The translations under genes were made by a program, and so were the position numbers. Shown piece after piece: positions 31,002 through 34,279 of a DNA stretch of 64,000 nucleotides (position 1 is its first letter; every line of letters starts with the position of its first letter). The notes below the pieces were generated by a model. It had not been told where the DNA came from, did not search any database, and saw nothing but the letters and a program-made list of their open reading frames with translations. The stretch comes from a virus (Duplodnaviria; Heunggongvirae; Uroviricota; Caudoviricetes), in the IMG/VR virus record IMGVR_UViG_2698536687_000001, one strand, 5' to 3'.

Positions 31002-34000
31002 ATGCCTAAAACGTCATGAGCAACACCTCGAGTGTCCCCCTTACAAGACACAGAACGTCTGGCAAAAAGAGGTTCCACTCTGAAGCCATTGTCATGATAA
31101 AGCTCTCTGATGTTTGGCGCGCCACTGTTAGTAATGAGAACCTTTGCACCTCGGCGATGAGCATCCGTCAACAGAGACACCAGGCGTTTTTGCTCTTCAA
31201 ACTTAAAGTCATGACCGGAATAGTTCGTGAATCCCTCTGTATTTGGAAGCGGTTCATATGGCGGATCGCAAAAAATGACATCTCCTTCTCCGGCAGCTTC
31301 AATCACCGCAGCAAAATCACCACATACAAACTCAGAACGACCTTCCGCACCGAGGAAGGCTTCCATCTCCTGTAATGGGAAATACGGAGTTTTATACTTC
31401 CCATAACCGACATTGAACTCACCGGCCTGGTTGTAACGCGTCAATCCGTTAAAACAATGTCGGTTCAGGAACAAAAACGCCGCTGCGCGATGTAAATCAT
31501 CATAGACTTGTTTGTTAAACGCATTCCGTACTGCCAAGTATCCTTCCTGTGTCTTGTAGTCCTGGAAAAACTGATGCGCCAGTGTGATAAGTGAATGCGC
31601 CTCGCGTTGCAGAGTCTTGTAAAAGTTAATCAGGTCAGCATTCACATCATTTAGCAGATTTTCCTGGTATCCGGCATTCATGAAGACAGCTCCGCCACCG
31701 ACGAAAGGTTCAATCAGGCGCTTCCCTTCTGGCAAATAGCGAAAGATTTGTTCCAGAACACCAAATTTTCCACCAGCCCATTTGAATATGGACCGTTCGA
31801 ATTCTGCCGCTGGTTTAACTTTTCGCTCTTTTGTTTCACGCCCTTCATTCTGCCGACATGCAGCCTTGGTTATCCGCTCGCCAATCCAGCGCATTACTGG
31901 TATCGCCATACTATTGCCGATCGCTTTGTAACGCGGTCCGTCAGCTGCAAGCATCGCGGCCTCTTCTTCGCTTAAATCTGGATAGTGATTGTGCAGATAT
32001 ACCAGTTCATCTGAATTAACTTTTTTACGCTTTTCCGTAGGGATCAACGTATGCCCATCAGGAAAACCTTGAAGTCTCTCACATTCGACAGGGGTAAGAC
32101 GGCGGACAGCTACTTCTTCGTTTCTTACTTCATAGCAAACAGCAGTTGGATTTTGAGCCATTAGAGATGGTGAAGTATTCTTAGTTGCTGCATGTTGTGT
32201 ACCACTCATACGCTCAGGAAAAGCCAATGTAACAAGATGCTCATGGCTTTCTTGCTCACGCGCCCGCAATGTACCATGCCCTTCTGACCAAAAACCTGCT
32301 CCAGTGCTGCTAAAAACGGCAAGGTCAGTGGCATCTTTAAAGTCTCTTGCCTTTACTGTCGATGCGGTTTCATCGTCAATATATTCCCCAAATGCCGCCA
32401 TCCTGAAACCGTTTACGGCTTTCGTCGATTTCATACCGGGGGACATGCCAGCGTGTAGGCATGGATTTAGGCTTTCGCCACTGATTGCAGCGCCATTTGC
32501 AGTAATGGCGGAAGCGATTTCCTTCTTTTTTCGGCTCGGCGCAATATTCCGGCGCACGCCTTCGAACTCAAAAAGTACCGTTGCGGGATCGAGGTCTGTT
32601 CGAGCACTTGCGACAACAAACACGCGTCGGCGTCGTTGTGCCACTCCGAAGTATTGGGCATCAAGGATTCTCCAGGCCACCTTTCGCTGCGGTCCATAAA
32701 TACAACCACACTGTGGCCACTTTGGAGCATGGCAACCGGTTTTGCCATCCCACCGCCAGAACGCGTTACTTTTTCCTGATTCAGGTCGATCACCTGGTTC
32801 AAATGGCGCATCTTCTCCAGCCAATCCGGCAAGGAAACATCCGAAGGCGTTATCTGCCGATGACAAGACTCCTGGGACATTTTCCCAGACGATAACGGCT
32901 GGTTTGAGAAATGACTCAGCCCGTTTGTCGTCAATTGCATTTGCAAGCTCCACATACTTTAAAGTTAGCGCGCCACGCTCATCATCAAGCCCACCACGTA
33001 ATCCAGCGATACTGAATGCCTGACAGTTATGGACCACCGCACCATTGAGGATATAGGAATGATCACCTTCGACTTCTATGTTGTATACAGTATCTAGGCC
33101 TACCGATTTAAACTCTTTGACTGTTCGTAAAAGCATTCCATGAGCCAATCTTGATTTACGTGACAATTTCTGCGGGCAGATTGTTACCTGATAATAATTC
33201 CGTTGATTTACCACGCGATCCTCAATCACTTTTTTGGGCTTAACTTCAATAAAGCTGACCGAAGAAACGTAACCACAAGTCTGTGACAACTCCGCAACGC
33301 CCCAAGCAAGCGCAGGACTAACACTATTAATTCTAAATCCCGCTTTACCACTTGGTGTCCCATCAGTATCAAGATAGCCTTGTAAAAACACATGACGCAA
33401 TGGATGCGACATAACCCATGCAGGGATACGCTTAGCATGGCTTAACTCGCCAAAATGTTCATTAAGCCAATTGGCATAACACGTATCATTCAAGGTTACT
33501 TTGATGCTCCCTCGGATTTCGCTTGCCACGGAAAATATGTTTTCTGGTATGCGGCAATGAAACTTTCTCAATTTCTGGCAATTTATGCCAAAAACAACCG
33601 CCTTCTTAGATTTACCTCTCCATCTCCTAATATATCCATCGCCAACATAAGCGCCCGCAAGATACATAGCCTGTTCTTCAGACAAGAACCGAGAACAAAT
33701 ATCTGGAGATGCAATATTGAAATTAGTTAGAGCACACCATTGATATCCCGGCATATCACATGCTGCTCGCCATTCCGGTTCAGACAACAACTCTCTCTTA
33801 AAATATGTGCCATTTTTCCGGGTGTTTTGGGCTTTCCACCGAACCGCCAGGAAGGGATGGTCATTGGTTGTTCTTATACCTAAAGGCTGCCCAACGGCAT
33901 TAAGTAACCCCGTATTAGCTATTTTTGAACCAACTCTTTTTACTTGTTGTAACCGCCCGAGATGACTGACTACGTAATCGCCAGGGCAAACATCTTCTAT

Positions 34001-34279
34001 TGGTTTATAACCATTTTTACAAAGAACCATATGCCCCGCGGTAAAACATGGTGTCCCTCCCACCAGCACATCAGGGGCTTCAATTTCTCCAGCCTGGACT
34101 TTTTGGGCGAGTTTTGTCATGTCGCCAAGGTTGGCGACATGGGGCCAGTGGTACGCAAGAACGGCAGATGGAAAAGGCTCGATTTCAGCAAACCACGCCG
34201 GACGCATACCCAACGGTTCCCAGGCAATACTCGCGGCTTCAATTCCACTGCAAACAGATCCATAGCACAGCTCTTTCAC
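30992..34279 (-). CDS. dmt: Bifunctional DNA methyltransferase Dmt-like (N-terminal C5-cytosine MTase, C-terminal Dam-like N6-adenine MTase), 1095 aa including a 341-aa intein
   Basis: C5 motifs [12 protein letters not shown] (split) and ENV ([11 protein letters not shown]); Dam-like motifs [21 protein letters not shown]; 1095 - 341 = 754 aa extein. Confidence 0.85.
33026..34048 (-). mobile_element. Intein with LAGLIDADG homing endonuclease domain (residues 78-418 of Dmt)
   Basis: Starts with Cys (CFTAGHMVL), block [17 protein letters not shown] motifs [13 protein letters not shown] and [13 protein letters not shown], ends [16 protein letters not shown] followed by Cys; excision restores [12 protein letters not shown]. 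Confidence 0.85.

What the first reader, a model, noticed from the sequence alone, without database searches (positions are those of the whole stretch)
33026..34048. LAGLIDADG intein inserted at the catalytic PCQ motif of the C5-cytosine methyltransferase domain of dmt
The C5-MTase motif IV is interrupted as VLVGGTP | CFTAGHMVL ... [16 protein letters not shown] | CQAFSIAG. Excising residues 78-418 (341 aa) restores [12 protein letters not shown] and leaves a 754-aa protein. The insert has a canonical N-terminal Cys, a TxxH block, two LAGLIDADG motifs and a C-terminal HN followed by Cys, so the methyltransferase catalytic cysteine would also be the intein +1 nucleophile. Inteins in DNA methyltransferases, and in enterobacterial phage-plasmids, are not something I recall being described.
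Basis: seen in the sequence. Interest (0 to 1): 0.85.

Follow-up and report, generated by a model that had tools for sequence, protein, structure and literature searches.

The report
Homing intein in P1 Dmt methyltransferase
The DNA methyltransferase gene (dmt) of this P1-like phage-plasmid is interrupted, exactly at its catalytic cysteine, by a standard self-splicing protein element (an intein) with its own homing nuclease; it is a genuine, apparently mobile but so far unannotated example of a well-known kind of selfish element.

Summary
ORF 30992-34279 (-) encodes a 1095-aa homolog of phage P1 Dmt. Residues 78-418 (window 33026-34048) are an in-frame 341-aa insert between Pro and the catalytic Cys of C5-methyltransferase motif IV (GGTP|CQ). 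Reference P1 dmt lacks exactly these 1023 nt.

The insert has every sequence hallmark of a class-1 intein: Cys1, TNDH, two LAGLIDADG motifs with their Asp residues, block F, and HN followed by Cys+1. It matches Hint, LAGLIDADG and intein C-terminal profiles. Its predicted structure (pLDDT 94) best matches PI-SceI and other intein homing endonucleases.

It occurs in about 31% of dmt alleles in complete E. coli genomes (152 of 5426 genomes) and in a laboratory P1vir stock. It sits in three different extein (host-protein) variants, each of which also exists empty. It is five-fold less diverse than its host gene and is under purifying selection. Linked flanking SNPs extend only about 120-160 nt from the junction. 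This is the signature of recent homing.

Related inteins (22-55% identity) occupy the same site in C5 methyltransferases of many phages, bacteria and one archaeon. It is therefore a new member of a known kind, not a new mechanism. Splicing and cleavage are inferred, not shown.

The parts
30992..34279 (-). dmt precursor ORF (1095 aa + stop): bifunctional C5-cytosine / Dam-type N6-adenine DNA methyltransferase interrupted by an intein
   Evidence: 100% identical over the 1,701-nt query (window 32700-34400) to NZ_CP143628.1, where the CDS is annotated only as 'Dam family ... methyltransferase'.
34049..34279 (-). N-extein (residues 1-77), C5-MTase motif I up to GGTP of motif IV
   Evidence: After in-silico splicing, PF00145 stretch 8-135 spans the junction.
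33026..34048 (-). Intein (341 aa, class 1, with a LAGLIDADG homing endonuclease domain)
   Evidence: Exact 1023-nt indel versus P1 reference. Pfam and NCBIfam hits. AF2 pLDDT 94.1, with top PDB matches PI-SceI, TliVMA, PI-PfuI and PI-PkoII.
34010..34048 (-). Splicing block A ([13 protein letters not shown]) with the Cys1 nucleophile
   Evidence: C1 is invariant in 30/30 alleles, and C1-F-T-A-G-H is invariant in the ~50%-identity relatives.
33857..33868 (-). Splicing block B, TNDH (Thr61, His64)
   Evidence: T61 and H64 are invariant in alignment A2.
33164..33718 (-). LAGLIDADG homing endonuclease domain (approx. intein residues 111-295)
   Evidence: Pfam LAGLIDADG_3 at residues 221-285, E 4e-9. 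Alternating helices and strands in the model. Foldseek hits to I-DmoI and I-SceI over this part. The domain limits are approximate.
33635..33661 (-). LAGLIDADG motif 1 (LAGAYVGDG; catalytic Asp137)
33413..33436 (-). Endonuclease block D (AKRIPAWV; Lys206)
   Evidence: K206 and W211 conserved
33359..33385 (-). LAGLIDADG motif 2 (LQGYLDTDG; catalytic Asp229)
   Evidence: G224, T228 and G230 are invariant in A2; no amino-acid change at 222-230 (including D229) in the 30 P1-like alleles.
33053..33088 (-). Splicing block F ([12 protein letters not shown])
   Evidence: Aligns to the C-terminal region of the Spl DnaX mini-intein.
33023..33037 (-). Splicing block G (VVHN) plus Cys+1, which is the catalytic Cys of PCQ motif IV
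   Evidence: (TIGR01443, 28.9 bits against cutoff 15.6). Codons 296-341 are identical at the nucleotide level in 30 alleles.
31871..33025 (-). C-extein, remainder of the C5-MTase domain (motifs IV-X), including the variable target-recognition region at about 32030-32629
   Evidence: The end coordinate is approximate.
31007..31798 (-). C-extein, Dam-type (D12 class) N6-adenine methyltransferase domain, not interrupted
   Evidence: PF02086 E 3.6e-56; TIGR00571 249.6 bits
34049..34166 (-). Upstream flank whose SNPs are linked to intein presence (co-conversion-like tract, about 118 nt)
   Evidence: frequency differences of 0.54-1.0 at gene nt 114-231. The last base of the Pro codon is A in 30/30 intein+ alleles and T in 22/22 intein- alleles.
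32866..33025 (-). Downstream flank whose SNPs are linked to intein presence (about 160 nt)
   Evidence: frequency differences of 0.61-0.78 from +24 to +160, and 0.25 or less beyond

Best explanation
The insert is a canonical class-1 intein carrying a LAGLIDADG homing endonuclease. It lies between Pro77 and the catalytic Cys of motif IV (PCQ) of the C5-cytosine methyltransferase half of the P1-type bifunctional Dmt.

Inferred splicing mechanism. Dmt is translated as a 122-kDa precursor whose C5 active site is split. Cys1 undergoes an N-S acyl shift. The thioester is passed to Cys+1 (the future catalytic Cys). Asn341, helped by His340, cyclises and releases the 38-kDa intein. An S-N shift then rebuilds GGTPCQAFS, giving the 83-kDa enzyme.

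Inferred homing mechanism. The free intein, or the precursor, uses Asp137 and Asp229 to cut intein-less dmt alleles around GGTACGCCT|TGTCAGGCATTC when two P1-like elements meet in one cell. Repair from the intein-bearing copy then copies in the intein together with about 120-160 nt of flank on each side.

What is shown: the anatomy, the fold prediction, the family relationship, the presence/absence polymorphism and the population signature. What is inferred: splicing, cleavage and the homing step itself. The C-terminal Dam domain is uninterrupted, so it may work even before splicing; that too is inference.
For: 1. Precise in-frame 1023-nt insertion relative to P1 reference dmt; removing it restores a 754-aa Dmt.
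2. Pfam Hint_2 (28.5 bits, cutoff 28.4), LAGLIDADG_3 (36.9 bits, cutoff 22.5) and a weak Intein_splicing hit; NCBIfam intein_Cterm 28.9 bits against cutoff 15.6.
3. AF2 model from a 16-sequence alignment has pLDDT 94.1 and pTM 0.90. The top 16 Foldseek PDB hits are all intein homing endonucleases (PI-SceI at E 6e-17, TliVMA, PhoVMA, PI-PfuI, PI-PkoII).
4. In-silico splicing raises the PF00145 score from 104.8 to 125.3 bits, and one matched stretch then spans the junction.
5. Among 30 intein-bearing alleles, C1, T61, H64, D137, K206, D229, H340, N341 and C+1 never vary. pN/pS is 0.24 overall (Hint-N 0.07, endonuclease domain 0.47), and codons 296-341 are identical.
6. The intein occurs in extein classes of 672, 754 and 807 aa, and all three also exist without it. 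Nucleotide diversity is 0.0066 in the intein, against 0.038 in the N-extein and 0.032 in the Dam domain of the same alleles.
7. SNPs linked to intein presence run only from -118 to +160 nt around the junction.
8. All 153 copies in complete E. coli genomes cover at least 80% of the query; the 39 listed rows with 1-1023 coordinates span exactly 1023 nt and one spans 1022 nt.
9. Inteins of 22-55% identity sit at the same P|C site of C5 methyltransferases in 35 of 48 other viral contigs examined and in many bacterial genomes.
Against: No experiment shows splicing or DNA cleavage for this intein. Block F has Asn where many class-1 inteins have Asp (VYN rather than VYD). The endonuclease domain is under weaker constraint (pN/pS 0.47) than the splicing domain. 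Linkage of flanking SNPs could arise from shared ancestry plus ordinary recombination rather than endonuclease-driven conversion. Five of 22 empty alleles carry the intein-type flanks. A few intein-bearing alleles are pseudogenes, so the host gene is not always maintained. Whether the C5 half of Dmt is active at all is not established; the P1 record says only 'perhaps at C5 cytosine'.
Confidence: 0.9

Rival explanations
1. It is a genuine, splicing-competent intein, but its endonuclease is no longer active. Its present distribution reflects vertical descent plus ordinary homologous recombination among P1-like plasmids, not ongoing homing.
For: pN/pS in the endonuclease domain is 0.47, against 0.07 in the N-terminal splicing domain. 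dmt is visibly mosaic, with exchangeable target-recognition regions. About 69% of dmt alleles in complete E. coli genomes are still empty although their target sequence is intact.
Against: Both catalytic Asp residues and the block D Lys are invariant in 30 alleles and conserved in distant relatives. The intein has five-fold lower diversity than its flanking gene and occurs in three extein classes. The short, symmetric tract of linked SNPs is what endonuclease-induced gap repair produces.
Confidence: 0.2
2. It is a non-splicing insertion (a decayed intein or a domesticated Hint/endonuclease module) that permanently disables the C5 methyltransferase half. It is tolerated because only the Dam half of Dmt matters to the phage.
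For: The Dam domain is intact and separate. C5 activity of P1 Dmt is only presumed in the reference annotation. Some relatives look decayed: Mannheimia has a truncated C-extein and Sphingopyxis has Ser at +1.
Against: All residues needed for the four splicing steps are present and invariant, the C-terminal 46 codons are identical in 30 alleles, and the splicing domain is under strong purifying selection with pN/pS 0.07. The C5 extein motifs on both sides stay intact and in frame. A dead insert would not need these.
Confidence: 0.05
3. It is not an intein but a group I intron or a free-standing homing endonuclease gene that happens to be in frame, or a sequencing/assembly artefact.
For: None found. 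The option is listed only because mobile introns with LAGLIDADG genes also target conserved sites.
Against: There are 341 sense codons in frame with the host gene. All 153 E. coli copies cover at least 80% of the query, and 39 of the 40 listed rows span exactly 1023 nt. Hint-domain splicing blocks sit at both ends. The Rfam scan of the window found no intron family here. The identical protein is seen on 101 independent contigs.
Confidence: 0.01

Closest known systems
PI-SceI (yeast VMA1 intein) and archaeal VMA/Pol inteins PI-PfuI, PI-PkoII, TliVMA
   Same: Two-domain architecture: a Hint splicing domain interrupted by a single-chain LAGLIDADG endonuclease. Cys1, TxxH, and HN followed by Cys+1. 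These are the best structural matches (Foldseek E 1e-17 to 1e-9).
   Different: Sequence identity is only 11-17%. The host protein is a DNA methyltransferase rather than an ATPase or polymerase. At 341 aa this intein is smaller than PI-SceI (454 aa).
Inteins of actinobacteriophage DNA methylases (Kelley et al. 2016, PMC5050341; Gosselin et al. 2023, PMC9957025; ICE-BLAST survey, bioRxiv 10.1101/2025.01.02.630785)
   Same: Phage-borne DNA methylase as host, a LAGLIDADG intein, patchy distribution, and evidence of transfer between divergent methylase alleles.
   Different: The detailed studies concern N6/N4 methylases (PF01555); C-5 methylase is only listed as a host class. The hosts are actinophages, not enterobacterial phage-plasmids. 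Those texts do not mention insertion at the catalytic Cys.
Unannotated inteins at the motif-IV Pro|Cys site of other C5 methyltransferases
   Same: Same insertion point (GGTP|CQAFS, GGSP|CQSFS, GFP|CQPFS, SPE|CTNHS), the same intein lineage at 22-55% identity, and the same blocks. Spliced exteins score as contiguous PF00145.
   Different: Those exteins tested score as PF00145 alone, without a fused Dam domain. Some are mini-inteins (P0023) or have a changed penultimate residue (K, A, N or Y in place of His) or Ser at +1.
Intein-less P1 Dmt (NC_005856 gp069) and P7 Dam
   Same: The extein is 93-97% identical at the nucleotide level, with the same operon (uhr-hrdC-dmt) and the same two methyltransferase domains.
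   Different: They have no insert. Reference P1 has Trp where others have Gly two residues before the Pro (VLVWGTPCQ).

Membership tests
Intein (class 1, canonical) | In-frame insertion in a conserved host protein that is absent from close homologs, at a conserved or active site | tested here: met
   Exact 1023-nt indel versus P1, P7, JL22, SJ46 and 19 IMG/VR alleles, at PCQ motif IV
Intein (class 1, canonical) | N-terminal nucleophile (Cys/Ser at position 1) and block B TxxH | tested here: met
   Cys1 and T61-N-D-H64, invariant in 30 alleles and in ~50%-identity relatives
Intein (class 1, canonical) | C-terminal His-Asn followed by Cys/Ser/Thr at +1; block F | tested here: met
   VVHN|C. TIGR01443 scores 28.9 bits against cutoff 15.6. 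Block F is [12 protein letters not shown]
Intein (class 1, canonical) | Hint (Hedgehog/intein) fold with the termini brought together | tested here: inconclusive
   Pfam Hint_2 scores 28.5 against cutoff 28.4. The high-confidence AF2 model matches whole intein structures, though with TM only 0.5-0.64 because domain orientations differ. The model coordinates could not be read to measure the distance between the termini.
Intein (class 1, canonical) | Autocatalytic protein splicing giving a ligated extein and a free intein | not testable with these tools
   Needs expression with western blot or mass spectrometry
LAGLIDADG (DOD) homing endonuclease | Two LAGLIDADG helices, each ending in a catalytic acidic residue, in one chain | tested here: met
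   LAGAYVGDG (D137) and LQGYLDTDG (D229). PF14528 E 4e-9. Structural hits to I-DmoI and I-SceI
LAGLIDADG (DOD) homing endonuclease | Site-specific cleavage of the empty allele, and homing | not testable with these tools
   Indirect support only: low intein diversity, presence in three extein backgrounds, and a short tract of linked flanking SNPs
C-5 cytosine DNA methyltransferase (PF00145), as host protein | Motifs I, IV (PCQ), VI (ENV) and X are contiguous after removing the insert | tested here: met
   PF00145 scores 125.3 bits on the spliced protein, and stretch 8-135 crosses the junction. GGTPCQ, WENVPG and GNS are present
Bacterial intein-like (BIL) domain | Hint domain without a conserved +1 nucleophile, in variable non-conserved proteins, with no endonuclease | tested here: not met
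   Cys+1 is conserved, the insertion is at an active-site motif, and an endonuclease domain is present. The only BIL match is E 0.9
Group I intron / free-standing homing endonuclease gene | Removed at RNA level, or a separate ORF with its own start and stop; ribozyme structure | tested here: not met
   Continuous reading frame with the host and no Rfam intron hit in the window

The most novel reading that the evidence does not exclude
The intein is more than a passenger. Because P1-like phage-plasmids compete for the same cell, its endonuclease may act as a gene drive or weapon that breaks intein-less rival plasmids on superinfection. Because it splits the catalytic PCQ motif while leaving the Dam domain whole, splicing between two cysteines (possibly redox- or metal-sensitive) could also time or gate m5C activity separately from GATC methylation in a single polypeptide.
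Probability: 0.15. Interest if true: 0.65.

Novelty: new member of a known kind. Interest (0 to 1): 0.45.

Why it matters
E. coli is usually treated as an intein-free host, and P1 is one of the oldest model phages. Yet about 3% of complete E. coli genomes (152 of 5426), plus Salmonella, Shigella, E. albertii and E. fergusonii plasmids, carry this intein. At least one laboratory P1vir stock (OP279344) carries it too. In every record I saw, the gene is annotated only as a Dam-family or cytosine methyltransferase.

It offers a natural, genetically tractable system for three things: measuring intein homing and co-conversion in bacteria (P1 intein+ x intein- crosses), studying splicing in which the +1 nucleophile is the host enzyme's catalytic cysteine, and asking whether the C5 half of Dmt is active.

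It also shows that the motif-IV Pro|Cys junction of C5 methyltransferases is a widely used intein site across phages, bacteria and at least one archaeon. The literature I could search barely covers this. Mechanistically nothing here is new.

Tried and rejected
1. Single-sequence AlphaFold gave an unusable model (pLDDT 32). It was repeated with a 16-sequence alignment.
2. PDB sequence search found only weak hits (Spl DnaX mini-intein E 0.0015, PI-PkoII E 0.025). Structure search was needed.
3. Ten full-text literature searches found nothing on an intein in P1 or P1-like dmt. The term combinations included intein with cytosine methyltransferase, phage P1, P1-like, phage-plasmid, bacteriophage P1 and dmt, and homing endonuclease with dmt. 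Two attempts failed on term length. Novikova et al. 2016 (PMC4760082) has no methylase mention in its main text, and its supplements are not held.
4. My first allele classification, by an exact 18-nt string, put four intein-bearing alleles in the wrong group and created false associations. It was redone by translation.
6. BIL domain, group I intron and free-standing endonuclease readings were considered and rejected (see the membership tests).
7. I did not run the representative-protein search, because a count of generic intein relatives would not bear on this site.
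Full report
**What is in the sequence**

The region lies inside one long ORF on the minus strand, 30992-34279 (GTG start, 1095 aa). Its translation reads ...[11 protein letters not shown]|[20 protein letters not shown]...[14 protein letters not shown]|[12 protein letters not shown]... The insert is precursor residues 78-418, which is window 34048 down to 33026: 341 codons with no stop. Deleting it gives a 754-aa protein carrying [12 protein letters not shown].

Pfam finds four things on the precursor:
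- a C-terminal D12-class adenine methyltransferase domain (E 3.6e-56);
- a C-5 cytosine methylase domain broken into three stretches;
- LAGLIDADG_3 and Hint_2 hits inside the insert;
- a weak Intein_splicing hit, also inside the insert.

NCBIfam adds intein_Cterm (TIGR01443) at 28.9 bits against a cutoff of 15.6, together with Dam and Dcm family hits on the exteins, the flanking host-protein parts.

**Comparison with relatives lacking the insert**

The window is a P1-like phage-plasmid. Over the 1,701-nt query (window 32700-34400) it is 100% identical to E. coli plasmid NZ_CP143628.1. Reference phage P1 (NC_005856) has dmt at 754 aa, annotated as a bifunctional methyltransferase acting at GATC 'and perhaps at C5 cytosine'.

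A nucleotide alignment of the two genes shows one gap of exactly 1023 nt at the PCQ codons. P1 reads ACG CCT TGT CAG. The window reads ACA CCA [TGT TTT ... CAT AAC] TGT CAG. After in-silico splicing, the PF00145 score rises from 104.8 to 125.3 bits and a single matched stretch (residues 8-135) spans the junction. The insert therefore interrupts an otherwise ordinary C5-methyltransferase fold between Pro and the catalytic Cys of motif IV. That Cys is also the residue immediately after the insert.

**Is it an intein?**

All sequence hallmarks of a class-1 intein are present, and each was checked by translation:

| Feature | Sequence | Intein residues |
|---|---|---|
| Block A | Cys1 (CFTAGH...) | 1 onward |
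| Block B | TNDH | 61-64 |
| LAGLIDADG 1 | LAGAYVGDG (Asp137) | 130-138 |
| Block D | AKRIPAWV (Lys206) | 205-212 |
| LAGLIDADG 2 | LQGYLDTDG (Asp229) | 222-230 |
| Block F | [12 protein letters not shown] | 321-332 |
| Block G | VVHN, then Cys+1 | 338-341 |

Single-sequence AlphaFold failed (pLDDT 32). With a 16-sequence alignment of homologs, the model reached pLDDT 94.1 and pTM 0.90. Foldseek against the PDB returned only intein homing endonucleases as its top 16 hits: PI-SceI at E 6e-17, then TliVMA, PhoVMA, PI-PfuI and PI-PkoII. Free-standing LAGLIDADG enzymes (I-DmoI, I-SceI) followed, matching the central domain.

The alternatives do not fit. There is no intron-family RNA hit in the window. 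The frame is continuous with the host gene. The conserved +1 Cys and the active-site location are not features of bacterial intein-like domains.

**How common is it?**

- Complete E. coli genomes: the 1023-nt intein DNA is in 152 of 5426 (153 copies; 148 on plasmids, 5 chromosomal). Every copy covers at least 80% of the query at 95% identity or better. Of the 40 listed rows, 39 span exactly 1023 nt and one spans 1022 nt, where the annotation splits the gene in two.
- A conserved C-extein segment of dmt is in 493 genomes, so about 31% of dmt alleles carry the intein.
- Plasmid collection: 133 records, of which 118 are Escherichia (including E. albertii and E. fergusonii), 14 Salmonella and 1 Shigella.
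- Phage collection: 5 of 18 records with dmt carry it. These are RCS47, vB_EcoM-Ro157c2YLVW (two records each) and OP279344.
- OP279344 is the genome of a laboratory P1vir stock used in Argonaute studies.
- The exact window protein is a RefSeq MULTISPECIES entry seen on 101 contigs. It is named only 'Dam family site-specific DNA-(adenine-N6)-methyltransferase'. No record I saw annotates an intein.

**Evidence bearing on mobility**

I compared 30 intein-bearing and 22 empty P1-like dmt alleles from GenBank and IMG/VR.

1. The extein comes in three length classes (672, 754 and 807 aa) that differ in the target-recognition region, where identity is about 70-75%. The intein is found in all three, and all three also exist empty.
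2. Within intein-bearing alleles, nucleotide diversity is 0.0066 in the intein. In the same alleles it is 0.038 in the N-extein and 0.032 in the Dam domain.
3. SNPs that differ in frequency between intein-bearing and empty alleles by 0.54-1.0 lie only between -118 and +160 nt of the insertion point. Beyond that the differences are 0.27 or less. The base just before the insert is A in 30/30 intein-bearing alleles and T in 22/22 empty ones.
4. The intein is under purifying selection. pN/pS is 0.24 overall, 0.07 in the N-terminal splicing part and 0.47 in the endonuclease part. The last 46 codons are identical at the nucleotide level in all 30 alleles.
5. None of the 19 variable amino-acid positions touches C1, T61, H64, D137, K206, D229, H340, N341 or C+1.

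Together these fit a young element spreading by endonuclease-induced gap repair into diverged pre-existing alleles, with short co-conversion tracts. They do not prove it, because shared ancestry plus ordinary recombination could give a similar picture.

Two further observations also fit the usual homing cycle. Five empty alleles (for example MH422554) carry the intein-type flanks; they could be ancestral or the result of precise loss. A few intein-bearing genes are pseudogenes: two have N-extein stops, one has an IS200/IS605 truncation and one has a 1-nt deletion.

**Wider family**

A search of 5.8 billion proteins with the intein alone found relatives embedded in PF00145 proteins at two levels of similarity:
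- about 50% identity: metagenomes, Mannheimia haemolytica, and a Rodentibacter remnant;
- about 30% identity: Pseudonocardia and unnamed metagenome proteins. The similarly distant Parvibaculum hit (P0022) has no PF00145 match and is not counted here.

Among the 48 non-P1 viral loci examined from IMG/VR, which carry inteins of 22-55% identity, 35 have the intein at the same motif-IV junction. The junctions are GGTP|CQAFS, GGSP|CQSFS, GFP|CQPFS, SPE|CTNHS and SPD|CKHFS. Six spliced exteins tested all score as contiguous C-5 methylases.

In species-representative genomes, the same site is occupied in Metarhizobium, Mesorhizobium, Beijerinckiaceae, Sphingopyxis, Gemmiger, Blautia, other Clostridia, Coriobacteriales, Arthrobacter, Bacteroidaceae, Deferribacteres and a Desulfurococcales archaeon. 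The P1 intein therefore belongs to an old and widespread lineage specific to the catalytic Cys of C5 methyltransferases.

**Literature**

Inteins in phage DNA methylases are known. N6/N4 methylases of mycobacteriophages are covered in PMC5050341. One such family has been studied for horizontal transfer and within-gene recombination in PMC9957025. A 2025 preprint lists the C-5 methylase (IPR001525) among actinophage intein hosts. Ten full-text searches found no description of an intein in P1, P1-like phage-plasmids or dmt. This is a limited library, so earlier mention elsewhere (for example in InBase, REBASE or InterPro) cannot be excluded.

**Mechanism and verdict**

The best-supported reading is a canonical class-1 intein with a LAGLIDADG homing endonuclease.

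- Splicing (inferred from conserved chemistry): Cys1 acyl shift, transfer to Cys+1, Asn341 cyclisation and amide rebuild would turn a 121.7-kDa precursor into 83.4-kDa Dmt plus a 38.3-kDa intein. This would recreate the PCQ active site.
- Homing (inferred from the population pattern): cutting of empty alleles, followed by repair from the intein-bearing copy.
- The Dam half is uninterrupted and may act before splicing. This matters because P1 needs GATC methylation for packaging (PMC12707154).

This is a new, unannotated member of a known kind at a commonly used site. It is useful mainly as a tractable E. coli/P1 model and as an annotation correction.

Noticed in passing
L002 (OP279344.1 61684-64725): A laboratory P1vir stock used for Argonaute work carries the same intein (99.3% identical) in a dmt with the P7-type target-recognition region (672-aa extein). 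The reference P1 c1-100 sequence has neither. Common lab P1 stocks may therefore differ at this gene.
   Followed up: partly
L001 (NC_005856 dmt), codon 74; corresponds to window ~34058-34060: Reference P1 Dmt reads VLVWGTPCQ. All the other 21 empty alleles and all 30 intein-bearing alleles read [10 protein letters not shown] Trp two residues before the motif-IV Pro is unique to the reference strain. It might impair C5 activity or alter the homing site.
   Followed up: no
window 27914-30293: ARAGORN finds no tRNA gene in the whole window. Homology to P1 downstream of dmt stops inside tRNA-Asn at about 30293. The P1 segment with tRNA-Asn/Thr, plp and upl is missing; in P1 about 4.9 kb separates dmt from genes 5/6. 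In its place are about 2.4 kb of DNA that match no P1-type phage record and are only partly similar (80.6%) to Cronobacter phage JK004. P1 homology resumes at baseplate genes 5/6.
   Followed up: partly
window 3700-3910, 5530-5740 and 52097-52303: There are three C4 antisense RNA genes. Two are each paired with an isrK-like RNA and lie in near-tandem 1.83 kb apart. The third is paired with the a1/b1 target element. I did not check how many C4 copies reference P1 carries.
   Followed up: no
window ~32030-32629 (gene nt 1651-2250): The target-recognition part of the C5 domain exists in at least three exchangeable versions among P1-like elements (extein lengths 672, 754 and 807 aa; about 70-75% nucleotide identity here against 95-99% elsewhere). 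This implies different m5C specificities.
   Followed up: partly
L009 (MH422554.1) and four IMG/VR loci among L039-L055: Five of 22 intein-less dmt alleles carry the flanking SNP haplotype otherwise linked to the intein (GGGGGAACACCT|TGT...). They are candidates for precise intein loss or for the ancestral allele that was first invaded.
   Followed up: partly
L161 (IMG/VR) and L220 (Sphingopyxis sp. GW247-27LB): A related intein at the same site is followed by Ser instead of Cys (VVHN|SQGFSLAG). The spliced product would therefore have PSQ in place of the catalytic PCQ.
   Followed up: no
P0011 / L154, L155 (Mannheimia haemolytica): An intein 47-48% identical to this one is followed by only about 20 unrelated residues (HN|CQSDKGGTVKASGGGFEWRE). 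The protein cluster is seen on 578 contigs. The intein looks intact inside a truncated methyltransferase gene.
   Followed up: no
L011 (NZ_CP100503.1), L014, L015, and NZ_CP027223.1 (hit H88): Some intein-bearing dmt genes are damaged: one is truncated by an IS200/IS605 insertion, two have N-extein stops, and one has a 1-nt deletion inside the intein that splits the annotation into two CDSs.
   Followed up: partly
P0023 (metagenome/NCBI protein, 306 aa): A mini-intein without an endonuclease domain sits at the same GGTP|C...HN|CQ site of a C5 methyltransferase. Its splicing blocks are related to the P1 intein's, consistent with endonuclease loss in this lineage.
   Followed up: no
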